From Trichinella spiralis (taxonomy: Eukaryota), in the NCBI RefSeq assembly GCF_000181795.1, contig NW_003526943.1, forward strand, positions 250,487-314,486: a stretch of DNA of 64,000 nt, in the 5' to 3' direction. Numbering within the stretch: the first letter of the stretch is position 1; each line of letters begins with the position of its first letter. A program made the translations under genes and the position numbers. Positions 2,423-48,467 of the stretch are shown here, piece after piece. The notes under the pieces are model-generated. The model ran no database searches, was not told the origin of the DNA, and saw nothing but the letters and a program-made list of their open reading frames with translations.

Positions 2423-3472
2423 TCATAAAATTAGTGTACAGTTTTCATCTGCTGCGTAAACTCCACTGGGGATAGAATGGGCGTTGTCTGAAAGCAGATG
2501 AAGAACAATTTCTGCATAATCGATACTGCTGCAGGTGGATCTGCTAGAAGTAACAGTTTCAGGAAATTGGTAAAGACGAGCAATTATTGATTCATAATGT
2601 TCTACATTTAAAGCGTAAATGCGAATTCCATAGTCAGCATAATCTAACACAGCACTTTTTGTTAGACCAATCAAAGCGTATTGACTTGCGATGTAAGCTG
2701 GACTGAACAGTAGATTTGTTGTTACAGAACCAATGTTCACAATTGCCGGTTGAGTGTGCTGTTGATTCAACAACATCTGATTTAGTTCGGCTCTCATCGA
2801 TTTAAACAGACCGTTGACATTAACAGCAATTACATTTTTCCAATAAATATCCGTACAGTTGTGAATCTGATGACCAAGAAAATCCCTCTGCATATTCACA
2901 TCGTACGGTATGCCAGAATAGACGGCGTCCAAAACCGTCGCCCCGTTCACCGCATAGTCTAGGGTACGGTAGGCTTTCAAAATTGCATCGACCATTCGAT
3001 TGCAGTATTTTGTTGAAGACACATCTGCCAAAATAAAAATCGCCTGGCCGCCTGATTCACGTATTTGGGCACAAATCTGTTCGCCTTCGTTGACCAACCA
3101 ATCGGCTATGGCTACTTTGGCCCCCTCTTTGGCGGCTCGCAGCGCCACTTCACGGCCTATACCCCGCGCACCACCGGTAATCAGCATTGTCTTTCCGGAG
3201 AAACGGTTCCTTTCAATTCTATGGCTAATTGCCGCCAACTTCAACGCCAATACAATGCTTAACTGAAAATGTTGTTCAAAAATATACCTTTTTTCCAATT
3301 CTTGACCATGTTATTTAATTTGTAATTATTTTGCTTTATTTAAACAAAAATTTTCAACAACTTTTAGTTGAAAATTAAAGAATTACAACAGATATTTAAA
3401 AAACTGTCATCAGAAACTTTTTTCGTGTTTAAAGCATCTTACCTGAACAAAAAGTGGTGTACGCAAATGCAT
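2423..3472 (-). CDS. Short-chain dehydrogenase/reductase-like protein with predicted signal peptide (exons 3472-3443 and 3262-2423)
   Basis: TGGARGIG Rossmann motif, ADVS, VNIGS and YIASQ in place of YxxxK. A 30-nt upstream exon MHLRTPLFVQ (donor cag|gtaag) splices in phase 0 to acceptor ttttcag at 3263, giving MHLRTPLFVQLSIVLALKLAAISH. Confidence 0.85.
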
Positions 3473-4488: not shown

Positions 4489-6520
4489 GTCCTAGAACAT
4501 AAGCAAACAGAAAATCAATGAAAAATTCTGCAGTTTTGCAATCGCTGATCAAACTGGAGGTGAAAGCAAACAAAAATCTTATTATAATAACTTCCAATTA
4601 TAGAAGAGCTTTGCAAAAAATAAAATTACAAAACCGCATGCTTGCAAATAATTTATAAATCATGTGTGAAATTTGCATTTAATATTATTCAATCAAACGT
4701 ATTTAGTAGAGGATGTATAAAGCAGATAAAAGCATCTTTCAAATACTTAAAAGACGTGAAAACACGAAAAGAAATAATAGAACCAGCGATATTGCCTACT
4801 ATTATTACAGACTATTAGGCCGAAAGGCAGTCTGCAAAACTCAATAATGTACTGTCCTACTGTCTTGAAAATCAACAGACTACCGTAATCTGCTAATTGA
4901 TAATATAATTTATTCGTCATTGTTTAAATGGTAAAGTACCTCATAAGTGTAAACAGTGATGAACAGAGTTCATTGGAGAAAATTTTTTAAATATAAGACA
5001 TTATTTTTGATTCTGCTCTTCTTCAAAATATGAAAATTGAAACTTTCACATCTGTAAACAGCAAAGCTTACGTAAAATCATAATATATGAATTGTAAATT
5101 TTCTGGAGCGAAAAATACGTGATATGATATGATATGACAATATGCCAGATAATTTCTGATAGAAAATGGTCGTGTAAGCATACCGTTCGCGGTTTGACAA
5201 GTTACAGAAAGCAATAATTCATTTCTCTGTTCAATGGTCAGAAGTAAAACGGAAAGATATTACTCGAAAAACAAACATACGATATTAATGCGCACATCAT
5301 AATTAAGAATAATTGGATCCAACTCAAATCTATAAGAACGTATATGAGAAAAATCATTCAAATACACACCAAAAATCACCAGTCACTAGTTTGATAGTAT
5401 TTCTCTCTCAAGTTCAAATCTGCCGTTATTTTTTACATTATCATTTCAGTGGCATGTTGAAATGATCTCATTTAAGGTATGATATTTTTACTACTGATTT
5501 AAACAAAAGCATTTATGTTTTTAAATATTAAAATGTACAAATAAAAATATGAAAGGTGAAATAATTTCCAAAATTTTCAACTGACAGTTGTAATTATTGA
5601 TTAGTGTTGAAAATTTACTGGAAACTGATAACAAAAAAGTTCTAAATAAAGTATTCTAATCATTTTTAGGCATTTGATATTTTTCAGATATTAATTTTGC
5701 ATAAAAAAGATATTAATATATTTTTAAAAAAGTATTTGATTACGAACAATTATGACTTTGCACTGTTTGTGTTGTAAAATCAAAAAGAATGAAAAAACAT
5801 TACTTTTGTTTTATATTCTGAATTCTTTCGGCATGTAAATTGCTAATTTATTTTAAGTTACTTTTATATCATTTGATTTGATATAATTGCACCGTATGTT
5901 AAGAATTATACCTTATTATACTAACAGTGCATCTGTAGTTATGTTAAAAGATGTTACTGCGGCTTTGAAGAGAAATAATTTTCCTGTTTGATATTTTTAT
6001 TAAAATTCATTTTTTACCATTAAGTCACATTCATCTCTTTTAATCTTTTATTTTTTATATTGATTTTTATTCTGTCTACTAAACTGAAATTTTGCTGTTG
6101 AATTGCTTTGTCTTATAATTCAGTGAATTTAAATGGTTTCTGAAAAATTTTTCATAGTTATTACAGTTCTGTGAAATTTAATTTTTTACATAATTTTTTG
6201 CATTTTTACATTTTTACATACATAATTTTTACATTAATTTTTTTATTGCATTTACAACTGTAGCTGCAGAAAGTTTGCCTTCTGATAGTAATATCTGGTG
6301 AATTGTAATTTTGTTTGCTGGTTGTCATATAGATTCAATCGTTTTGTGATTGGCCGTTTCAGCTGATTATCAGCGTATTTATTGTTGTCACTTGTTTTAT
6401 TGCATCGATTGAATCATTTATCGAGATTTTATCGTTAGATACACAGTCGGCATCGAGCAACTCTGATTTGTTGTTAACTGTAAAATGTTTCGAATATGAA
6501 TTATTTGTTCTAGGAAAAAT

Positions 6521-6748
6521 ATGTCCAACGCTGAAAAACTTGCGGAAGAATTTGAAAGCGGTGAAGCTGATTTTGATCGTGAGGTGGACAGTGTTGGTGG
6601 CTCTGGAAAACATCGTACTAAACTTGAACAACACCAGCATAAGAAAGAGCACATTGAAGGAGATACTAGACGTATCGTAAACAATGCCATGGCTGGTGAG
6701 AAAAAGCGCAGTGAAGAGCAAAAGGAAATTAACATGAAAGAAAAATGA
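6521..6748 (+). CDS. Small p8/NUPR1-like nuclear protein, paralog B (75 aa)
   Basis: MSNAEKLA...DFDREVDSVGGSGKHRTKLEQ...GDTRRIV aligns without gaps to the 4255-4488 protein. Acceptor-like tttgttctag ends at 6513. Confidence 0.7.
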   Translation: MSNAEKLAEEFESGEADFDREVDSVGGSGKHRTKLEQHQHKKEHIEGDTRRIVNNAMAGEKKRSEEQKEINMKEK

Positions 6749-13547: not shown

Positions 13548-14817
<1,270 letters not shown>

Positions 14818-19424: not shown

Positions 19425-22400
19425 ATGGATGATGAACAGTTGATTAATGATTTTAATTTAATTGAAGATTTGTTTAGCAACTTCAATGCCAATCAAGTAC
19501 AAGCAGGTGAGCTTCATTTGCGTAAAGTGGAAATTGTTCATTTTTATTTTCCTATTTTTTGACTTTGCTTTAGATGAATCACATTTGGAAGAATTCAAAT
19601 TTACTTCGAATACTGATAATGACAACATTACTGATCTAACGCTGCGTGATTTAGGAGTTTCGTCAAATGATGACTTTTTGAAAGAATTAGGTATGCTGAC
19701 ACTAAATGGTTGTAATAGTAGAACGTTGCCTATTTTTCTCTTATTGATTATTTGATTAACACTAATTTTTTACTTTATTGTTTAAAATGATTGGATTTTA
19801 TTGATTGCTCGTTCTGTTTAAAGCTGACGTTAAATGAATGTTAAGATGTTTGTTTCTGTTTTATCCATATATCAGTGTTTAGTCTCTGCAAAGTTTGTTG
19901 CTTGTAAATATTTTATTTATAGACAGTACGGGGCTCGCCGATGCCCAAGAAAAGCTGTCCGAAATTAAAGTAAGAAAATAATTTGTTTTTTTCAATGTTA
20001 TTATGAGAAATGAAGGCAAGTAGTAGCGCATATATTTCTAAAGTGAGTTTGTTTAACATAATTTTATTCTTAGGATGATGTTGAAAACGAAGAAATTTTA
20101 CATTACCTTACATCCGGCGAATTTCCTGCCGATTGGAAAACTGCGCTTGCTTTGAACAATTCATACCAGGAAGTTCTGAACGCCTTTATTAAAAAGGCAG
20201 AAAATATGTACCGCGAAGTTGACGAACAGTTGGTTTGTTGTTAGCTTAAATTTACCAATTTTGTTGTTCACATCAATTAGTGCATATTTAAAATAAGAGT
20301 AGTATTTTTTTAAGTAATTTGAAATTGACATCATTGCAATAAATGACGAATTTTGTTGCGTACATTTGAAATAGTTACGTACGCGCTATAGGCAGTTGTG
20401 CATGTTGATATTTTTAGCGAGACATTTCTGACAAACTTTATAAGAAATATGGAAGAAATACTGCGATGTCCGCTTTTAGACCAGTGAATTACAGTCACCC
20501 GTACTTCAGCGATAGCAACAGATTTGTATATTAACTTATTTGAATTTATTCAATTTGTTGAAGTCCAATTTTTTAGACTCCTGCCCGTAACAAAGACGCC
20601 GAGAGGAAATTACTAAATAATGAACCTGATATGTTGGTAAAGCCTGCGCAACCTTGGAGCAAAGTGGCTGTTGAAGTTTTGCAGAAATGCGTTCGCAAGC
20701 AAGTGGAACATTCGTTGAAGAAAGAAATCACGAATAGGTAGATTGATTTGTGATTTTTTGAAAATTTCACTGTTTAATTGATTTTTCATTTTGCTTTTAG
20801 AAAAACTGTCATTACCGCAACGTTGAACTATTTGAAGAAGCATAACACTGCGGACAGCAGCCCTGAATCTCAACAACAGACGATGGAAGAGATGCATTCT
20901 CTGTGGTGTGAGTTGGAACTGCTGGATCAGGAATTGGCAAAAATTGAGTAAAGCGATAGTCTGTAAGATTTGAGATGTATATTTTTTTCAAAGATGTTTT
21001 TCGTTTTTTAGCGATTCTACGGTTGAGCAACATCTGGGAAATATTGCATTTTTGAATGATTTGGATTGGACGGAAGTTTCGCAGTCAGTTTCTTTGGTAA
21101 GCATTTATTGATTTATTAAATAAATATCTTGTGATGAATGAAAGTATTGTTGTATATTTTTCTTTCTACTTTGTGGTTGTTGTTGTATTTAAGAAAAATT
21201 AAAATGTACAATTAAAAAAATTTGTTTAGAAACAAAATAGATCTGCCGCAGAATGTAGGCAAGCTTGGCTGAATCAGTTCGCATTTTGGATCAACCGAAG
21301 TGAATGGACAGTGGAAGAGGTGGAAAAGTTGACAGCTTTGGCCGAACAGAATGAAGGGAAAAATTGGAATCACATTGCAGCAGAATTACAAGTAACCTTT
21401 TAGTGGTGGTATGAATGGATTTGTCAATTTTGTTTATTTATTTGTTTGTTTATTTCAGACAAATCGAACAGGATTTGCATGTTTGCAGAAATATCAAGAG
21501 CTTGTCTGCAAAACGCATGGATGGTACGTGCAATTTGTTGTCTTTTTCTTCGCTGCTTTTCAAAACTGAATCACATTATTCACGTTTAAGCAACAAATGG
21601 GAGGAAGAAGAAGATAGACTGCTTTTGGAAATAATCGACAGTTTTCGTGTAGGCAACGTTATCCAATGGAGATCGGGTAAATAAATGAATGAATAAAAAC
21701 ATATTTTGGCTAATTTTTGTTCTCTTCAGTGGGATACTTTTTTGAACATCGAACCGTATTGCAGTGCAAGCAGCGTTACGAATACATCAAGCCAGGAAAC
21801 AAGAAAGGTCGATGGAATGCTGAGGAAAAATTGGTAATATGATTTTATTATTAATTTTTATTTTTATTTTATTCTGCATCACCTGCATCCAGTTGAATGT
21901 GAAGGGATATTTTTTGATGCCGTAGTTGGTGATTGGTTTTACTTTTTCTTTTTTCAAGTTGCTTTATTGGGCGGTGAGAACTCACGGGCCGAAGAATTGG
22001 AAGCGAGTTGCTGAGATGGTTCCCGGTCGGAACGCTTTGCAATGCCGCGATCAATTTTTGAACATTTTGGATTGCAGCATTCGCATTGAACAATGGACCA
22101 AAGCCGAAGACGAGATCATCTTGTCCATGACGGCCAAAGAAGGCAATCGGTATGCTTTGATAAGTCGAGTGTTGCCGGGCCGCACCCCGAATCAAGTGAA
22201 AATGCGCCATCGTATATTGATGAATTCAAAAGACAAAGTAAGCGGGAAAATTGGTTGGTTGGTTCATTTTTCATGTTCATTTTGTTTAACATTGAGAAAT
22301 GAAATATCGATGAAGTGAATCACTTTCGGCTGTCAGTTGCTTTGGAAAATTGTAGCTTATTTTTTTTTTCAGAGAAAGCTTTTCAACAACTTAGCAGTGA

Positions 22401-22938: not shown

Positions 22939-23501
22939 AAAGAAGCCTGGCAACAAGAAAATGCATATCATTCCACTGCCTTACTTAATGTGGATAGAAA
23001 TAATGCATCTCCTTACTAATTAATTTCTGTCGTATCTCATTGATATTTATTATTTATTTGTTTTTCGAAATCATTAAATTATCTGAATTGATCAGCAGTT
23101 GTTGTAAGAAGCAGAAATAATTGCACATCATACTGCTTATTGTTTAATCATGTTGTTCGTTTATTTTTCAACTTCTTATATCATTACGATAAAGAAATTG
23201 ATCTTGAACATCATTAAGCAGTTGAAAATTGTCAACATGTAATTACTACATAAAATTTGTTTGAGATGAAAAAAAATAGTTGCAATATGCTACAGATTAG
23301 TGTCGTTTTCAGCTGAAATTAAGATAAGTTGATAAAAATTTTAAATTGCACTTTAAAGTGCAGTAGTAGGAATTGTTTAATTTAAACAAAATCTTTTCAA
23401 CAACTTTTGTTTAAAGTGCTTTTCAGTGCGTAAGTGGGAGAAGGCATGCTCTGATCAGTTTAGACCAGTGTTCGTTCGAGGAAAGCTGCTCTTGCTAACG
23501 A

Positions 23502-23873
23502 ATGGCTTTACCGACCGATATTGTTACTGTACCTGCGGAAGAAGTGTGGTTCAACGCGCCGTGTTTGAGTGAACAAGTGACGGCGTTGAAACTTTCCAAC
23601 CCAGGCAACAAGCTGCTCGGCTACAGGGTGGTGTCGAAGGTGGAGAACCGCTACGTGGTCTTACCATCCCAGGGTGCGCTGCAGCCGAAGAAGGACATCA
23701 CCATAAACATCATCTGCCACCCGTTTCCATTCAGAAGTGAATCACCTCCTGTGGACACGTTGATTATTGAATGGGTCGACGCGTTTGAAGGCGAAACGGA
23801 TTTCAACGAAGATTGGTTCGTCATGGGCGGAATTGTGCGGAAAAAAATCCTCTCCGTTAAATTTAACCCTTGA
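23502..23873 (+). CDS. Major sperm protein (MSP) family protein, divergent, intronless
   Basis: 123 aa, colinear with nematode MSP: DI.T.P...WFNAP, G.L.PK, IEW, EDWF..GGIVRKKIL.V.FNP C-terminus. Confidence 0.85.
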   Translation: MALPTDIVTVPAEEVWFNAPCLSEQVTALKLSNPGNKLLGYRVVSKVENRYVVLPSQGALQPKKDITINIICHPFPFRSESPPVDTLIIEWVDAFEGETDFNEDWFVMGGIVRKKILSVKFNP

Positions 23874-31500: not shown

Positions 31501-33666
31501 CAACAAAGAACCCCCCAACGGAGACAAACCACGAACTTCCGCCGAAAGCTTCAATCCTGCCTCTGCTAGCGGTGGTGGTGGTTGTGCTGTGGCTAATTTG
31601 CCTGAAGTGACCAAAAAAGTAACTCTGGTTGGGCAGCCGCCTACTTTGGCTTTGAACAACAGGTCTCCGAAATGTCACAAACTACCTAGCGCTATATTGA
31701 AAATGAACGAGCAAATTGAAAAGGTGCAATTGTTTGTTTGTTTGTTTGTTTGTTTTTCTGTTGTGGTTGCCACTTCCTTTTGTGGTTGTCATTTTAGCTA
31801 ATTGGCGATCACGGGAAAAAGGTTCTCTTTTGGAACAGGCAAGCAGTTGAATTGTTAGTGAAGTAAGTTCGATTTGGAAATTTACTTTACAATTGCGATG
31901 ATATTTTTTTCAACTCTGTTTATTATTTATTCCTCATTGGACAGTCAGTCTAATAATTTATAATTGTAATTTTATGTGATGGAAGAAATAATAAGTTTTA
32001 TTTGTTTAGAGTTAGCGACATGTGCTCGCAGTGTGGTTTGAATAAATTCGAACGCGGTGCCGTGTTTAACGACCTCAGCGCTCGAGTCAAGGTGCCCCGC
32101 CCGGAATTGATGGCCGCGTTGAAACGCATGGGACGACGATCGTTGAACAGCAACATACGAACTTCCAATTCGAGCTCTGATGTTACCCAGACGGCGGCGG
32201 ATTCGTCGCCAAATTTACCCCAACGGTGCAATTCAGAGGGAAATTTGAACGCAACCAAAAATGCCGACAATCTTGTTCTGCCTGGTAGCAACACTTTCAG
32301 CAATAATAGCCAACGATTGCGCCAAGCTATTATCAAGCTCAAGCGAGGTGATATATATTCATGGATGATTGCATTCCAATCGTTTGTGTTCTTCTTCAAC
32401 AGTTTTCTTTCCCGATTCTGACTATTTTGTTGTATGTACAGAAGTGGATGCAGTGATGCCAAATCTGTTGAGAGATTACAAGGAAATTTGTGCCGAAGCC
32501 GACAAACGGAAGCAGGAGATGTAAGTGGATCGTGGATTAAAATTTAAATGATAATATTATTTTATATACATACGTGCGAAAGGTGATTTTTTTTTATTCA
32601 CTTTTACAGAATGACTGCGAAGTCGGTGACGGAAAATGACAACTTTAGACCGAAAACGGTATACAAGCCCAGAAAGAAATTTCAATGGAATGTGACCGTT
32701 CAGTGCGTTGATAAATTTTTTGTGGTAACATTTGAAAAAAATGAAAAAAAAATACCTTTCAGAAGTCGATTGAAAGAGCTGTTCACTGAATTGGCCATCA
32801 GTACTTGTTTGAAACCTGGCAATGCAGATTCTTTACAAATGGAAAATCTGGATCCATTTTTCGACTGGCTTTCCACAAGCGTATGGCCTGATTCATGGAT
32901 GAATAGCAGGTAATTATTTGAATAGCGGGCAATTTATTAACTACCAACTTTATTAATTGCTACACCAGTATTGCATGAGTAATTCTTCTGTTCTTGATTG
33001 TTTGAAAAGTTGCAAAAGAATTCTTCCATTGTCATCAGAAATTGTTTTATATTTTTAGAGAATTGAAAAAGATGTTTTCTGTATTTTTTATGCAGAATCG
33101 ATGTGTGAAAGAAAAAACAGTTGGTGGAGTATCTCCTTCAAGTGCGGGCAATTTGAACAGTCCAGTAGCAGCAACAGCAACAGCAGCAGCATCGTCGCCG
33201 CCGTCGTCGTCGTCGTCAGGAATAATTATTGACTTGACCACTACCAATGGTGCTACTACTATTACTACTGCTACTACTACTACTACTACTACTTCTACAA
33301 CTGGTACTGCGGTGTCGAGTCCCTCGAATGTTAAACGACCACGAGTCGGTGAAACATCCCCCTCAACACCGCAAAGCGCCATTTCGCAGATTGCGTCCGC
33401 GTTAGTTGGTCCGTCGACATCGAGATCGTTCGACGCACCACCCGTGTTAACTGCACAGCAAATGCCACGAGCCCAGATACAGCAGCAGCAACAACAACAA
33501 CAATCACAACAACAAAAACAGTTGCATCTGCAACAGATACAACAACAACAGCAACAATCAAACCAGCATGAACTACAACAGCACCAGCAGAAACAACTAC
33601 AACAAACACACCACCAGTATCAGCAATTACTACTACAACCACAACAACAGCAGCAGCAACAGCAGC

Positions 33667-33714
<48 letters not shown>

Positions 33715-34280
33715 TGCTAATACAATCACAACAACAACAACAACAACCACAACAGCAGTCGACTTCGTTGAGCCAAATTCAGACGGTCAAGTCTAACTGC
33801 CAGCAAGCAGTATCCGGTTCTACTCCTGCGAGCTCTATGCTGACGCAGACTACTGCAAAACTGCAACTATATCAAAAGATGGTGCAGGAAAGCGGTAAAG
33901 TACCACCGTTCCCTAGCGCAATTAAAGCACATTCAGTGCAGCAGTCACTGGCTGTCGGCGGAAAGTTCGTCGCTGGTAGCGTGCCGTTCGACGCCACGTT
34001 CATACGCATGGGAGGTACTATAGGGGTTTTTCAGCCCCAACATCCCGGCCCCAGTGCTTCTCCATCTTCGCCAATTACCAGAAACGCTCTACCTCATCAT
34101 CATCATCATCCACTGATCGGTCAACCGACAATGCAAGCTGTGAATTTCACATGGAATCGTCAAAGTATCGGTCGTCAATTTTTAGCCTCGAGAACCACAA
34201 CACCCAGACAGTCGGCTTCGGGAGAAGGAGCGTCAATTCGACTGCCACAATCCCAGCCCAGTGGAAATGGTTCCAGTTGA
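28590..34280 (+). CDS. Ubinuclein/yemanuclein (HIRA complex subunit), multi-exon
   Basis: HUN/HRD domain EDFIDLGFGYDLNDPFIDDAEG|YELLVPSTLSTQHGGFYVNRGELEF (30657-30900). Middle domain includes PRKKFQW and VWPDSWM. Proposed first exon 28590-28724 MDFVESSLAKKKKTLPTIRLDV...YPEI. Long low-complexity last exon. Confidence 0.85.
33478..33757 (+). repeat. CAA/CAG trinucleotide tract encoding poly-Q in ubinuclein
   Basis: Directly visible (caa)n/(cag)n run in frame within the last exon. Confidence 0.95.
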
Positions 34281-34311
34281 AAACAACTCAACTGAACTCA
34301 TCTCGGTTCGC

Positions 34312-34315
<4 letters not shown>

Positions 34316-34348
<33 letters not shown>
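34316..34348. repeat. (TA)n microsatellite
   Basis: Perfect TA run. Confidence 0.95.
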
Positions 34349-34351
<3 letters not shown>

Positions 34352-34600
34352 TAATTTACGGAGAGAACGACGGTTTCTGACGATCTGGAAAATCATCGGA
34401 AAATATTTTATTAACAAAAAAAAGGAAAATATTTTCTCATTGTTTTTTTTCACAGATCAATGATCTCCATCTGTTTTATTAAAAAAATTTTCTGCGTGAG
34501 TGTGGTGTGTACGTGATGGTGATGACAAAATGAAAATGACACAGACAGTCGAAAATACAAAACCCTGTAGAGATATATAAATAGCAGCAGACTCACAATG

Positions 34601-35314
34601 TCAAACGTGATCCGCAACATGTTGCGCTCGAATGATCGAACTGAACTGGGCACGAAGCTGTTTGTCGAGCACATTCCAAACCTGCATGCATCCTTGCTTC
34701 CCTTGTTCAAGCATTGCTTCGACCAAATCCGCGTGGGCCCTGCAGGAGAGTTCGGACAAGGCGACGGTTTTGTCGTGGACCAACAGCGCTAGAGTCATGC
34801 GAGGCAACTGGGCAACCACCTCTTCCTGGTGGTTCACGTCCAGCAGTGGCTGGTCGTTGTAGCAAGTCAAGCTGCAGGCGGCCACGAAATCCAGCATCGG
34901 CACGCCGGCGTGCATGAGCGCCATCGAGCAGGCGTTGATGCACGTTGCCAGCAAGCCTCCTTCGTTGGCAATCACCTCGCAGACGATGAAAATTTTCGAA
35001 TTCGGATAATGGGCGCCAATGACGACCGTCTCGAACACCTTTTTCAACAGTTGCGCGTATTCTTGGGGTCGACGGTCGGCGGGCGTGGCGTTCCTGTCGA
35101 CCACACGGCATTCGACCACCGCCCGATCCGCCCGAGTTCGAACTCGCCCGCCCTCAGTGGGTCCGTAGACCACGGCCAACACCTGGGTCAGGCCCTGTTC
35201 CAAATATGCCGAACCGTCGCCTTCGGCCACCGCCCCGACGTGGCACCGCATCTGGCGCAGTTCGTCCGCTCTGCGACCGTCGAGACGGAACCCTTGGTCG
35301 TCCAACACGTCCAT
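34601..35314 (-). CDS. EXOSC4: Exosome complex component RRP41, intronless
   Basis: RNase PH-fold motifs GFRLDGRRADELR, DGSAYLEQGLTQVLAVVYGP, YPNSKI, INACSMALMHAGVPM and LLDVNHQEE. Confidence 0.95.
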   Translation of the reverse strand: MDVLDDQGFRLDGRRADELRQMRCHVGAVAEGDGSAYLEQGLTQVLAVVYGPTEGGRVRTRADRAVVECRVVDRNATPADRRPQEYAQLLKKVFETVVIGAHYPNSKIFIVCEVIANEGGLLATCINACSMALMHAGVPMLDFVAACSLTCYNDQPLLDVNHQEEVVAQLPRMTLALLVHDKTVALSELSCRAHADLVEAMLEQGKQGCMQVWNVLDKQLRAQFSSIIRAQHVADHV

Positions 35315-35342
35315 CCGAAGAATCCTGTAGCCCGGTAGTCAG

Positions 35343-35611
35343 TCAGCGTCGGTTGACTTTGGCGCGGTTCATAAACGTGGCCAAAATTCGCTCGTTGCCA
35401 CGAATATTCTTTTCCACACAACGAGCCACGCACTGACGTTCGTCAGTTATCAACGAACGACCGTTCAAACTGTACACGCAACTGTTGAAGCAAACCTCGG
35501 TCAGGCTGTTGTACAAGATCAAAAATTGTCGTAGCTGAAAAACATTAAAACAATGTAAAAACAAACGACTAAATTTACTCGCTTTTTTAAAGGCTCGACA
35601 AAGTAAAGCAT
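35343..35611 (-). CDS. TIMM10B: Small Tim chaperone (Tim9B/TIMM10B, tin-9.2-like); main exon 35534-35343, first exon uncertain
   Basis: LRQFLILYNSLTEVCFNSC...DERQCVARCVEK twin CX3C motif of the Tim10/DDP family. Acceptor ttttcag at 35535. Possible first exon 35611-35579. Confidence 0.8.
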
Positions 35612-36876
35612 ACTGTGTAAAATAAAAACGTCACTTTAACAATCTTACAAAAAAAAGCTTTTTATTATTTGAAATCATGAAACTTGAAAGTTTACCTAAC
35701 TTTTCCGCAATTAAGCCTGAAACTACGTGATAAAATTGAGCAGTTATTGCGTCACTAAAGCGCACTTTACAGCGATTAATTTCAACAATTCATAATATTC
35801 AAAAAAAACAACAAACTACTTCAATCAAAAACTTAATCCCCAAACATGCATACTGGCATATTAAAAAAGAAAATAACAAGTGAAAATGTATTAGGAAAGA
35901 ATTATGAAGAAAAATTTATCCATTATTTTACCAAAAACTCTACTTCAAATCTTGCTGCTGATCAAAACTGTTTTGCACTTGGCAACAAAAATATTCAGTG
36001 TCAATTAAAAATTTTCGAAGAATTATTAACCGTCAATTGTTAAAAAAGAAATAATCAACATAATAAAATAAATCATACATCAAAAAGTTCTTTATTCATG
36101 ATGCCGTAACTGAAAATTAATCATCTTTCGTCAAAACACCAACGACAACAACACTAAAACACAACTCTCCAAATGTACAGTACACAATTTTAGCAGGTTT
36201 TCTCTAAACTGATCGCAAATTTTCGTTTCGTACAACAAAACAGATCCAACATGTACACGTTATTAATATTCAAAAAAAAAACAAATATCATTTTTTTAAT
36301 GCCCACTGGTTAAGCTGATATTAGTAATACAACTTAACTAATTTTTTCAAATTAATGGTCACTAAAATGTACAATTTAATAATCACTGAAAAACAATTGA
36401 ACAATTTTCAAATTGTTCAAACTCACAAAAAACTAATTTTATAAATTTTTCAAAGCTTACGTTACATTACAAATAAAAACTGCAAAAGTTCAAGCAATTA
36501 TTCGAGGAGATGCAATCTAAAACTACAGTATACTAAACGTTTTAAAGTAAAAAAGTTCTCAATATTAAAAATGATTTCAGTGAATGAATTTTTTAAATAA
36601 ATTTTTAACTTAAAATCTCACATCGCTTTCAAAGAATTCTAAATTATCACGATTATTATCACATATATTACTGAAATTTACAATTATCTTGTTATCACTG
36701 CAATCAATGAAGCATATTAAGTCGAATTTAATTTATTTCAATTTATTTTTTAATAATAAATTCAATTTTAATATTTATTTTTAAGTCAAGTGGAAATTCA
36801 ATTGTTAAACAGCAGTTCTTTTGATTTGAAAAATTAAAACTTCATTGTCTTTTAGTAGACTGTAAATTGACTACGG

Positions 36877-39405
36877 ATGAATGACGTAGAAAGAAATTTT
36901 GAAGTCGAGACAGGAGGTATGTTTTTGTTATTTTGTCAGATAATTTTTATTTAAACTATTATTCTTTCAAAGTTTTACTAATTATGTTGATTGTTTGATC
37001 TTTGTTAATCTCTCTTTGAACATATTTTATACAGTTAATTACCGATTATGTGTATGTTTTTTAATTTTCTGCACCTTTATTATTTTTTATTTATAAGCAA
37101 AATGTAATTTTATTGTGCATTTTTGTCAAATTTTGTTACATTTTGACTTTTGCTATTCTGCTTATGTAATTTGTTAGTACTTGTCAGCAAATTGTACAAA
37201 TATAGATAATAATTGCAGAATTTTTTCCTGAGAAAAGAATAGATTATTTGTAACGCTTCTTCATTATAATAGCTTACATTATATTGTTATTATTGATGAA
37301 TTGAAAGTTGTTTAGAGAGTGAAAGCAGAGCGAAAAATATGGCAGGCGCTGCTGAAGTGGAAATTTTTTTAGCTGAAGTACACAAAGATGAAAAAAATGC
37401 AATTCGTCATTTGACGAATTTTGGTGAGTGTTACGGTTTTTCAAAACTGTGTCGATGAATTGTCATTGTTACTATTTTTGTTGTCATACATCTTTTGCAA
37501 AACACTTAAACTGTAATCATTTTCTGAATAATCAGTTTGGCTTTAAATAGCTTTGTTCTTTAACTGTGACTGATTGTCAGTATTGATGTGTGATATAAAT
37601 TACAGTGACGAACACTACGTCACAAGACAATGAAGAAGAACTTAAGAAAAAAGAAGAAGTAATTATGCAGTGTGGTAATATTTTGGCAAGAGAAAAGTTA
37701 ACTGAAGGTATTTTTGAGATGGTATTTGAAAATTGTCATTATTGTTTCCTCTTTGCAGCATTAAAAGAAATGATTCAACGAACTCGACCTTTTTTAATTT
37801 CCCTCGGAAAAGCCAAGGCAGCAAAATTGGTTCGTAATTTGGTTGATTTGTTTTGTAGCATTGAAATGAATGGTACTCCTGCAGAAGCGAAAAATTTCCA
37901 AGATATCAAGGTTATTTATTCATTTGGTATTAATAAACTGGAATTAGAAAAGTATTAATGAAAATTTGAATTTTTCAGGTTGAACTTTGCAGAGAATGCA
38001 TTCAATGGGCTCGTGAACAGAGTCGCATTTTTTTGCGCCAAACTCTCGAAGCAAGACTGGTGAAATTGTTCAACGAAATTGAAGATTTCCAAAACGCTCT
38101 CAATTTAGGTGAATTTGGATTTGCAAAATTTGTGCTTTTTAAATTGATCTTGTTTTTTCCTCATTTCAGCGGTTACTTTGGTGAAAGAATTGAAAAAGCT
38201 CGACGACAAAGAATTGATGGTCGAAGTGCAGTTGGAAGAGAGCAAAGCTTGTTATGAAATGGGAAACTTGACAAAAGCAAGAGCCGCCCTAACTTCAGCC
38301 CGAACTACCGCTAATGCCATTTACGTATCACCTAGAATGCAAGCCGCTCTAGATATGCAGTCAGGTGTGTGTGCTTGTGGTAATTTTTATTCAAAGTGCT
38401 TTGAATTTTATTTTTTTGCTTTAGGAATTCTTCATGCGGCTGATGAGCGCGATTTTAAGACAGCATTTTCGTATTTCTATGAAGCTTTTGAAGGCTATGA
38501 CGTTTTGAATCTTCCCGAAGCATTGCGCGCTTTGAAATACATGCTGTTGTGCAAAATTATGCTTAACCTGTAATATCTTTCAAAATTTTATATTGTTTAT
38601 GATCAATCTGATGATTTCCTTTTTCTAGTCCTGATGACGTTCACATTCTTGTTCAGGGAAAGTTAGGAATGAAACATGCCGGTAGACAACTTGAAGCGAT
38701 GAAAGCCGTTGCTACTGCTTCCAAAGAACGCTCGTTGTCCGATTTCAAAGAAGTGAGAATTTACATGTGCAATATGTATGTTTCGAAGCATATTTCTTCA
38801 GGCATGCGGAAAATTTAACGAAGAATTGCAAAGTGACCGTGTGGTGAAGTCTCATTTTCAATCGTTGTATGACAGTATGCTAGAGAAAAATTTATGCCGA
38901 ATAATCGATCCTTATTCTCGTCTTGAAATCAGTTTCATTGCAAAGCAAATAGGACTTCCTCAGGTTTTTATTTGTTTATCAGTTATATTTTTTTCAAAAT
39001 ATAATTTTTGATTTAACGTTGACATTCGTATTTCTTAAATAAGTATTTTTTAATCTTTTTAGCAGCAAGTTGAAAAGAAATTATCTCAAATGATACTAGA
39101 CAAAGTACTGTACGGTAAATATGCTTTACAAATTTTTTTCATCAAATAAATAATAAAGTGTACTAGATATCTATATATTTATAAGTATTAATTGGAAAAG
39201 GGTTTTTTTTGGAATAGTTTATTGTTATGTTTTGTAAATGGTAAAATGTGATTTGTTTTCAGGTATATTAGATCAAGGGGAAGGTATTTTGGAAACTTTT
39301 GAAGTTGATGAAGAAGATGAAGCTTATGCGTTGGCTATTGAAGCGGTCCACGGTTTAAATGAAGTTTGCGACATTTTGTATCGAAAAGCCAACAAGCTGA
39401 ACTAA
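36877..39405 (+). CDS. PSMD11: 26S proteasome regulatory subunit RPN6, multi-exon
   Basis: [75 protein letters not shown] and PCI-domain [10 protein letters not shown]...GILDQGEG. Stop at 39403-39405. The start may instead be ATG 37339. Confidence 0.95.
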
Positions 39406-40287
39406 AACTTATTGGTCAACACGATTGGTTTCCTTCTCTTTTATTTTTGCTATCTCATAATTAAAATTAAAAATATAATAAAATGAAATAAGTTTTATTT
39501 ATTCATTTTTTTTCTTGGTTGACTGAGATTGACCGGTACAGCCCTCGCAGTTGTGTTTCGAAAAGAAGCCGAAAACAGCTAGTTTTGCATTTGTGAAAAA
39601 TGATTTATTGTGTTCTGAATAAAATAGTGGTCTGTTATGAACATCAACCGTTGATTGTTTTCAAAATATTTTGATAAAAGTATTTTTTTATTTTTAATGT
39701 TTTCATAACTGACTTGAATTATAATATGTTTGCTGATTGTGTAATTTTAAAGGAAAACTGTGTGTGTAAATAGGTGAATGAAAAATCTTGGTAGTCAATT
39801 TGATAACAATGACAACAAAAGTTATTACACATGGTGCTATGAATAAAATTTATTATAATAATAATTTCAATGAAATTTTTATGAAATTGTCGTGTTTACA
39901 TTGTACTCATTTTCCAAGATCTATCACTGAAGTAACCTGTGTGTGTTAAAAAAAAATAAAACTGTGTAAATAATTGTAATAAATATTTTAAATTTAATTT
40001 GTTCTGGTTCAGTTGTTTCAGTGAATTTTAAATATTAAAATTATTTCAAAAGAAATCTTTTGTAATTGAACAATTATACATACTTATATATAATCTACTG
40101 TATGCAGAAGGTAAAAATTTGGAGAAATTGTTTGTGAGGTAGTGCAGATTGTCGGGTGGTGTAAGTAGAGAAAATGTGAGTTCGACGGCTTATTTGGGAA
40201 TACTTTTAATTAATAAAACAGATTGGGTTTAATATCAACTGAAAGTTTTGTCTTCTTTTAACAGAGCATATTTGATTGTTCGGCTCC

Positions 40288-44474
<4,187 letters not shown>

Positions 44475-47345: not shown

Positions 47346-48467
47346 AGAAGACGTTGTTAAGAAAGATGTCCGTGGCACTCTGAATAGATTAGCGCCAGCA
47401 AAATCAAATGTTGATCGTCTGAAAATAAGTGAATGCCCCACTTTAGACATACTTTCTTCCGAATTGAGAAGACGTGAGCATCCAGAAGTGAAAAGGAAAA
47501 AAACAATGATGAAACAAATGATTCAATCTCCAGTACGACCGGTAGTATTAGCTAAACCTACTGGTCGTCGAGTAATGTTAATGCGAAACGCAGAAAGAAT
47601 GGATCGCATATTTCCTGAATGGGTTGATGTATCATTCAATGATGAAGTATTTTTTTCATTAATATTCATTCCATGATGAAAAAGTTTGCTTTTTATAGGG
47701 AAAATACAAACCGTATGATTTAAATCAACCTCTGAAAATTCCTGAGCGCCATGATGGATACGAAGCTTATCGCATTGATTCTCCAATAACTGAATTGGGA
47801 AATATCACTGCTGTAATGCTTGGACGTGCTATGAAACTGGGAAAACATTTGCCTCACAGAATTGTTGTTAGTCCCGCGTTTCGGTGCATTCAAACTTGTC
47901 ACAGTCTTCTTAAAGCAGCAGACAATCCTTTGTTAAGGATGCAAATTGAGCCAGCTCTTTTTGAGTGGCTAGCGTGGTATGAAATAATGCCAACTTGGAT
48001 GAAATTTAGCGATTTAGTGAAATCAAATTATAAAATCAACAGCACTTATAAGCCAGTTACTAAGGCTAGCGATATGCAACAGTATTCGAATGAAAGTGTT
48101 GCCGATTTTTATGAACGTTGCATCAATGCTTTTAGACAAATATTAGAAAGTGATAAAAGTAAAAGTTGATTTATTTCAAAAAATTTTGAAGAGGTTTAAC
48201 TGTTTTTGTTTAGAAAAAGGAAATATCTTGTTTATTGTCCATAGTACGACTATTGATGCGATTACACGCTTTTTAAATGGTATGGATACCAGCAATGTTT
48301 CTGAAGAAGCACTGAAATCAGTGGGTGAAAACTATCCGTACTGTTCAGTGTTGATTTATGAAGAATTAGCAGATGATACATGGAGATTAATGCCCGATGT
48401 ATTGCCGTCTATTACTTACTTGGATGTCAGTAATCGTGTAAACATGGACTTTCTAAATCGAATGTGA
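46598..48467 (+). CDS. Histidine phosphatase superfamily (UBASH3/Sts-like) protein with N-terminal tandem repeats; 5' end in gap
   Basis: RVMLMRNAERMD, GKYKPYDLNQP, DSPITELG, VSPAFRCIQT, IEPALFEW, ESVADFYERC and GNILFIVH. Introns near 47647-47698 and 48159-48213. Confidence 0.85.

What the first reader, a model, noticed from the sequence alone, without database searches (positions are those of the whole stretch)
34601..35534. Tim9B-like and EXOSC4 ORFs only 28 nt apart: candidate dicistronic mRNA
Seen: on the minus strand the Tim stop (35345-35343) is followed by CTGACTACCGGGCTACAGGATTCTTCGG and then the EXOSC4 ATG (35314). The spacer is GC-rich, with no poly(A) signal, U-rich tract or strong TTTTCAG acceptor (only a weak CTACAG). 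Established: ordinary nematode operons use a ~100-nt spacer for 3' end formation and trans-splicing. From memory, to be verified: C. elegans tin-9.2 and exos-4.1 also share one locus. Inference: an ancient arrangement in which an essential exosome subunit is translated from a shared mRNA by reinitiation, leaky scanning or readthrough.
Basis: partly seen in the sequence, partly recalled or inferred. Interest (0 to 1): 0.8.

Follow-up and report, generated by a model that had tools for sequence, protein, structure and literature searches.

The report
Two-gene mRNA shared across nematodes
In the parasitic worm Trichinella a mitochondrial import gene and an RNA-exosome gene lie only 28 bases apart and RNA data run across both without a break, so they likely share one mature mRNA whose second protein is likely made by ribosomes restarting; the same gene pairing is already in C. 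elegans databases.

Summary
Observation confirmed, with one correction: Tim9b (TIMM10B) has a further first exon at 36109-36079, giving 70 codons. The window is Trichinella (RRP41 identical to T. spiralis). RNA from 4 of 4 runs covers Tim9b, the 28-nt spacer and the intronless RRP41 ORF evenly, with no joint or loose end at the spacer; the only poly(A) signals lie after RRP41. A two-ORF mature mRNA is likely (about 0.85). The pairing is pan-nematode: 11 of 15 long Tim9b-domain database proteins are Tim9b-RRP41 fused gene models (clades I, III, IV, V) with non-homologous junctions, probably annotation artefacts; C. elegans tin-9.2 and exos-4.1 share locus B0564.1 (operon CEOP4532). Two metagenome loci bracket the arrangement: an AUGA stop-start overlap (L006) and an ordinary operon with a 195-nt spacer (L015). 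Spacers of -4, about 25 and 28 nt in different frames rule against readthrough and favour reinitiation, but how RRP41 is translated is untested, and a minor trans-spliced monocistronic form is not excluded (about 10 reads deep). New member of a known kind; mechanism open and testable.

The parts
36110..36466 (-). Likely outron / 5' region of the unit (low RNA depth), ending in a TTTTCAG acceptor at 36116-36110; likely trans-splice site, no leader letters seen
   Evidence: contig depth 24-35 over 36079-36466 against 258-268 at the exon joint; X7 contig ends at 36110; the one X18 fragment here kept outron letters
36079..36109 (-). Tim9b exon 1 (31 nt), start codon at 36099-36097, A at -3, 7 codons
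35535..36078 (-). 544-nt GT-AG intron, GC 0.27, strong TTTTCAG acceptor; retained in about 4% relative to the main contig
35343..35534 (-). Tim9b/TIMM10B coding part of exon 2 (twin CX3C), stop TGA 35345-35343; one weak in-frame AUG at 35372, nine codons before the stop
35315..35342 (-). 28-nt inter-ORF spacer, GC 0.57, no AUG, no poly(A) signal, weak CTACAG at 35330-35325
34601..35314 (-). EXOSC4/RRP41 ORF, 237 aa, intronless, start context C at -3 and G at +4
34412..34600 (-). 3' UTR with AATAAA at 34480-34475 (second at 34412); RNA depth of this strand falls near 34500

Best explanation
Tim9b and RRP41 lie 28 nt apart on one exon that RNA data cover without a break, so they likely form one mature dicistronic mRNA, and RRP41 is likely translated from it by ribosomes that restart just after the Tim9b stop. 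Steps: (shown) one intron is removed between 36079 and 35534 and coverage is even from Tim9b through RRP41 to the only poly(A) signals; (inferred) the message is capped or trans-spliced near 36110; (inferred) ribosomes start at the Tim9b AUG, or at the weak in-frame AUG nine codons before the stop, terminate, and a fraction of 40S subunits reinitiates at the next AUG 28 nt on; leaky scanning may add to this. (Inferred) the arrangement arose from an ordinary operon by loss of the intercistronic region. Split of the confidence: dicistronic mRNA is the main RNA about 0.85; RRP41 protein comes mainly from it about 0.6 (reinitiation about 0.38, leaky scanning about 0.22).
For:: stranded raw reads (X18, 100 reads laid) give depth 11.6-12.2 over Tim9b exon 2 plus spacer and 6.6-13.9 over RRP41 (ratio 0.84), so no excess of RRP41-only RNA; no joint, loose end or pile of ends at the spacer; contigs of 3 of 3 contig runs bridge it, and X7 contig 14 (1075 nt) runs spliced from 36110 to 34492; exon-joint depth is 0.68-0.74 of the main contig only about 30-60 nt from the 5' end; no poly(A) signal between the ORFs; only two AUGs precede the RRP41 AUG, both in the Tim frame. 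Published T. spiralis intercistronic distances are 74-213 bp, far above 28 nt stop-to-start. Stop and start stay close in relatives while sequence and frame change: about 25 nt in T. pseudospiralis (inferred from a fused model), AUGA overlap in L006, the overlap typical of termination-reinitiation (PMC10275272). In Trichinella the Tim AUG context is stronger than the RRP41 one, which fits reinitiation better than leaky scanning. C. elegans: both genes are B0564.1 in CEOP4532 with ICR -1611 and near-identical expression.
Against: No translation data at all. Raw depth is only about 10: an alternative form at 20% or less would be missed with probability 0.56-0.96, at 50% with 0.02-0.15. Contigs cannot show spliced leaders (none appears at 36110 either), and the X18 library is random-primed, so precursor RNA can contribute. 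The 26-32% shortfall at the exon joint could be 5' drop-off or molecules lacking exon 1. No exact UGGGA (TURBS motif, recalled) within 120 nt of the stop in the window or L006; no unusual fold at the junction (z -0.28); 70 codons is long for unaided reinitiation and 28 nt is at the outer limit for viral cases. L006 has an acceptor-like TTTGCAG about 60 nt before its RRP41 AUG with no AUG between, and its AUG contexts fit leaky scanning. PMC7668243 Table S3 lists a T. spiralis 'exos-4.1' as SL1 trans-spliced and Table S6 a B0564.1a homologue in an SL2-defined operon, but with neighbours (vars-1, algn-12, F09E5.8) that gave no Pfam hit among 117 window ORFs, so these are probably paralogues; unresolved.
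Confidence: 0.58

Rival explanations
1. The two-ORF mRNA makes only Tim9b; RRP41 comes from a minor monocistronic mRNA made by spliced-leader trans-splicing at an internal acceptor (the strong intron acceptor at 35535 or the weak CTACAG at 35325) or from a promoter in the 544-nt intron.
For: The intron acceptor is a perfect TTTTCAG; a leader there would drop the Tim9b start and leave only one weak 9-codon uORF before RRP41. Exon-joint depth is 26-32% below the main contig. L006 has TTTGCAG about 60 nt before its RRP41 AUG. L015 processes the pair as a normal operon. Trichinella uses SL1- and SL2-type trans-splicing.
Against: No loose ends in 3 or more reads at either site and RRP41 depth is not above Tim9b depth; CTACAG lacks a U tract and the spacer sequence appears not conserved in T. 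pseudospiralis; a 880-nt second ORF kept on the main mRNA, at stop-start distances of -4 to 28 nt, would be unexplained.
Confidence: 0.28
2. A small intron (GT at 35376 to AG at 35325) removes the Tim9b stop and makes a Tim9b-RRP41 fusion protein, as annotated for T. spiralis (KRY42979) and for other nematodes.
For: 11 of 15 long Tim9b-domain hits are fused models; the 52-nt intron has GT-AG ends and restores the frame.
Against: Junctions of 12 fused models examined are non-homologous, 20-83 residues in 11 and the RRP41 N-terminus missing in 1, and most keep the RRP41 start Met. An intermembrane-space chaperone fused to a nuclear/cytoplasmic ring subunit is implausible (own knowledge).
Confidence: 0.04
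3. Stop-codon readthrough or a frameshift at the Tim9b stop carries ribosomes into RRP41.
For: The stop is UGA followed by C, and a second UGA with CUA after it lies in the RRP41 frame (readthrough-prone contexts, recalled; sequence).
Against: Spacer 28 is not a multiple of 3; it would need a +1 shift and a second readthrough in T. spiralis; the frame offset differs between species (1, 1, 2); the RRP41 start Met is kept.
Confidence: 0.03
4. It is an ordinary operon whose precursor RNA happens to be abundant, with Tim9b 3' end formation at a non-canonical signal.
For: L015 shows the pair as a canonical operon; C. elegans lists it within operon CEOP4532.
Against: 28 nt leave no room for a 3' UTR plus a 74-213 bp intercistronic region; intron-containing precursor is only about 4% while the spacer is fully bridged; no signal hexamer.
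Confidence: 0.07

Closest known systems
C. elegans tin-9.2 / exos-4.1 (B0564.1, operon CEOP4532)
   Same: Same two orthologous genes, same order, one locus name, overlapping gene spans (ICR -1611) and near-identical expression.
   Different: I recall that a 2015 WormBook chapter lists 'operons that make dicistronic mRNAs' and may treat this pair; it was not held, so this is unverified.
Drosophila Tim9b (CG17767) - CG12788 dicistronic mRNA
   Same: Tim9b is again the short upstream ORF of a dicistronic message (PMC2276209); 159 dicistronic pairs are annotated in the fly (PMC4528330).
   Different: Different downstream partner; no RRP41 link (19 non-nematode-like RRP41 loci with 1 kb or more upstream lack Tim9b).
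Canonical nematode SL2-type operons
   Same: Co-transcribed housekeeping genes; L015 has this very pair in that form (AATAAA, 195-nt spacer, TTCAG 5 nt before the AUG).
   Different: The window has no intercistronic region, poly(A) signal or strong acceptor between the ORFs.
Viral termination-reinitiation (calicivirus, influenza B TURBS)
   Same: Stop and start within about 30 nt; AUGA overlap in L006.
   Different: No exact TURBS core or notable structure found; cellular mRNA with a 70-84 codon first ORF.
Green algal polycistronic mRNAs (PMC7896298)
   Same: Small first ORF, separate proteins, random frame relation.
   Different: There leaky scanning is favoured and spacers have medians of 212-260 nt; here the first AUG context is the stronger one.

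Membership tests
Dicistronic mature mRNA | Two separate intact ORFs on one spliced RNA | tested here: met
   (X7 contig 14 spliced and spanning both; even stranded depth); short-read and contig evidence only, no single long molecule
Dicistronic mature mRNA | No 3' end formation between the ORFs | tested here: met
   no signal hexamer, no pile of ends or loose ends; low depth
Dicistronic mature mRNA | No dominant monocistronic form of the second ORF | tested here: inconclusive
   majority form unlikely, minority of 20% or less not excluded
Dicistronic mature mRNA | Both proteins translated from the same molecule | not testable with these tools
   needs ribosome profiling or reporters
Canonical SL2-type operon | Intercistronic region of about 70-200 nt with upstream poly(A) signal | tested here: not met
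   28 nt stop-to-start, no AATAAA against 74-213 bp
Canonical SL2-type operon | Strong U-rich trans-splice acceptor before the downstream AUG, receiving SL2-type leader | tested here: not met
   CTACAG, T fraction 0.14; no leader-like loose ends (low depth)
TURBS-type termination-reinitiation | Stop and start within about 20-30 nt | tested here: met
   28 nt here, about 25 in T. pseudospiralis, -4 in L006
TURBS-type termination-reinitiation | 18S-complementary UGGGA core in a structured element upstream of the stop (motif recalled) | tested here: not met
   only one-mismatch matches; fold z -0.28; no Rfam match above threshold
TIMM10B/Tim9b | Twin CX3C Tim10/DDP domain, closest to Tim10B | tested here: met
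EXOSC4/RRP41 | Two RNase PH domains, closer to RRP41 than to RRP46 or MTR3 | tested here: met

The most novel reading that the evidence does not exclude
An essential exosome subunit in nematodes is made by coupled termination-reinitiation on a cellular dicistronic mRNA, without a viral-type TURBS, and this mRNA evolved from an ordinary trans-spliced operon (still seen in L015) by collapse of the intercistronic region, to an AUGA overlap in one lineage and a 25-28-nt gap in Trichinella, tying exosome supply to translation of a mitochondrial import chaperone.
Probability: 0.3. Interest if true: 0.75.

Novelty: new member of a known kind. Interest (0 to 1): 0.5.

Why it matters
Nematodes are thought to resolve co-transcribed genes by trans-splicing; a phylum-wide pair that instead stays on one mRNA gives a natural test case, workable in C. 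elegans, for how animal ribosomes reach a second ORF after a 70-110 codon first ORF. The three states (overlap, short gap, full operon) show a route from operon to dicistronic mRNA. Practically, gene models in at least 11 database clusters fuse the two genes, and the Trichinella Tim9b first exon is mis-predicted in the models seen.

Tried and rejected
No whole genome is held for the window. No run on record as RNA was listed as a holder: not evidence. Per-base depth over the spacer and species differences in more runs remain unseen: only one read lay is available. Lack of out-of-frame AUGs in Tim9b (0 against 2.0-3.1 expected, P 0.02-0.09) was rejected as support for leaky scanning: RRP41 itself is low (4 against 7.4), and L006 (0, P 0.30) and the operon-type L015 (0, P 0.22) show the same. 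Junction fold not better than shuffles (72 of 200 fold as well). Rfam: one sub-threshold IRE_I match at 35455-35498 (21 bits, cut-off 34, E 0.21), treated as chance. A search with the Trichinella Tim region alone found only the two Trichinella fused clusters. The upstream exon predicted in P0141 (start at 35611) was rejected as the main form: no RNA joint, region depth about 4%. The tree could not place L015, so 'operon is ancestral' is inference. Earlier-findings look-ups returned nothing. Ten literature searches listed no paper describing a Tim9b-RRP41 dicistronic mRNA, but Morton and Blumenthal 2011, Pettitt 2014, Allen 2011 and the 2015 WormBook operon chapter were not held and may do so. 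PMC9258526 supplements had no hit; bioRxiv supplements were closed, and one legend cell and file 12 of PMC7668243 were unreadable.

Full report
Observation. The described anatomy is in the sequence: minus-strand stop at 35345-35343, a 28-nt spacer, and an ATG at 35314 opening an intronless 237-codon ORF. The upstream ORF is a Tim10/DDP protein closest to human Tim10B; the downstream one is RRP41 rather than RRP46 or MTR3. The RRP41 protein is identical to that of a T. spiralis database model, so the window is Trichinella. The spacer has no AUG and none of 12 poly(A) hexamers; AATAAA occurs only at 34480 and 34412. Its only AG has a T fraction of 0.14 upstream, against 0.68 and 0.43 at the two TTTTCAG acceptors of the unit.

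RNA. Four runs were laid once on 34000-37000: one stranded raw-read run (100 reads laid) and three contig sets guessed to be RNA. All four show one joint, a 544-nt GT-AG intron from 36079 to 35534, which adds a 31-nt first exon with the Tim9b start at 36099 (70 codons). Depth on the minus-strand RNA is 11.6-12.2 over Tim9b exon 2 and spacer and 6.6-13.9 over RRP41 (ratio 0.84). No joint, loose end or pile of ends falls at the spacer. Contigs of 3 of 3 contig runs bridge the spacer, and one runs spliced from 36110 to 34492. Intron-retaining RNA is about 4% of the main contig. Limits: about 10 reads deep, so forms at 20% or less are not excluded; contigs show no leader even at 36110, so they cannot test trans-splicing; the one raw fragment across exon 1 kept outron letters, so trans-splicing at 36110 is inferred, not shown; no long read was seen.

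Relatives. Of 15 proteins of 131 residues or more hit by a nematode Tim9b profile, 11 also carry RNase PH domains, all named as nematodes: Trichinella (2 clusters), Enterobius, Anisakis, Aphelenchoides, Necator, Oesophagostomum, Mesorhabditis (2), C. auriculariae, C. brenneri. Their junctions differ in place, length (20-83 residues in 11 of 12 models examined) and sequence, and the T. spiralis junction needs an intron that RNA does not show, so they are best read as gene-finder bridges over a tight gap, and as evidence of phylum-wide adjacency. The T. pseudospiralis linker is the +1 reading of the Tim9b tail (0 of 234 control 4-mers fit), implying a spacer of about 25 nt with different sequence if that exon is contiguous. 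A metagenome scan gave 42 RRP41 loci; 2 have Tim9b upstream. L006, an intron-free contig that groups with clade III-V nematodes (100/100), has the RRP41 AUG overlapping the Tim9b stop as AUGA. L015, genomic with introns and not placed by the tree, has a 195-nt spacer with AATAAA and a TTCAG acceptor 5 nt before the AUG, an ordinary operon. None of the other 40 has a named nematode as top hit; 19 of them have 1 kb or more upstream and no Tim9b, several being near-duplicates.

Literature seen. PMC4631084 (passages): B0564.1 = tin-9.2. PMC7466980 (passage): WBGene00007201 = exos-4.1. PMC5025045 (reference passages; one supplement row): operon CEOP4532 pairs WBGene00044083 and WBGene00007201, both B0564.1, ICR -1611, near-identical expression. 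10.1101/642082 (sections 8, 9 and passages) and PMC7668243 (passages, Table S3, rows of S6): T. spiralis has SL1/SL2-type operons with intercistronic distances of 74-213 bp; no mention of this pair in the main text; its 'exos-4.1' entries have neighbours for which 117 window ORFs gave no Pfam hit and are probably paralogues. PMC10275272 (section 9, passages): viral reinitiation uses overlaps such as AUGA, within 20 nt, falling beyond about 30 nt; eIF3 can stay for up to 60 codons in one study. PMC2276209 (passages): fly Tim9b is also the upstream ORF of a dicistronic mRNA, with another partner. PMC4528330, PMC7896298, PMC8450093: passages only. The WormBook chapter and Morton and Blumenthal 2011 are recalled, not seen.

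Mechanism. Shown: one spliced exon carrying both ORFs, even coverage, no internal processing signals. Inferred: a dicistronic mRNA is the main product (about 0.85) and supplies RRP41 (about 0.6). Readthrough is ruled against by frame (offsets 1, 1, 2). Reinitiation is preferred over leaky scanning because stop and start stay within -4 to 28 nt while sequence changes, and because in Trichinella the first AUG has the better context; against it, no TURBS core or special fold was found, 70 codons is long, and L006 contexts suit leaky scanning. The main rival (0.28) is a minor leader-trans-spliced RRP41 mRNA from the intron acceptor or CTACAG.

Verdict. A real, conserved feature; a new member of a known kind, since the C. 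elegans orthologues are already curated as one overlapping locus and Tim9b-led dicistronic mRNAs are known in flies. What may be new is the phylum-wide spread, the AUGA overlap and the operon-type state, which make the translation mechanism directly testable. Interest 0.5.

Noticed in passing
window 36879-36916 (+), spliced towards 37316: Divergent Rpn6/PSMD11 gene: a short first coding exon (ATG near 36878) is joined to the exon holding the ATG at 37339 according to a contig loose end; it shares a likely bidirectional promoter of about 400 nt with Tim9b.
   Followed up: partly
window 33072-34280 (+): Convergent gene with a 402-codon open frame rich in Gln, Thr and His runs, no Pfam match, expressed at similar depth; its 3' end approaches or overlaps the RRP41 3' UTR across a TA repeat. 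T. papuae and T. zimbabwensis models fuse RRP41 to its antisense frame.
   Followed up: no
window 37300-44000 (+): Rpn6 is followed closely by a RecQ-type helicase (DEAD, Helicase_C, RecQ_Zn_bind), possibly an operon.
   Followed up: no
window 34601-35534 (-): The whole Tim9b exon 2 plus RRP41 is one 1.07-kb GC-rich exon (GC3 0.60 and 0.72), whereas L015 has introns in both genes; intron loss through a cDNA of the two-ORF mRNA is one untested explanation.
   Followed up: no
L015 2000-2500: Another exon-like stretch ends about 270 nt before the Tim9b exon, suggesting a longer operon in that organism.
   Followed up: no
window 2426-3310 (-), 6500-6745 (+), 13548-14814 (+), 21926-22315 (+), 23499-23870 (+), 47699-48166 (+): Short-chain dehydrogenase, p8/NUPR1-like, actin, Myb-domain, MSP-domain and histidine-phosphatase coding pieces.
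   Followed up: no
P0233 (database protein): A C. angaria model fuses a paired-box gene to Tim9b, suggesting a tight upstream neighbour there.
   Followed up: no
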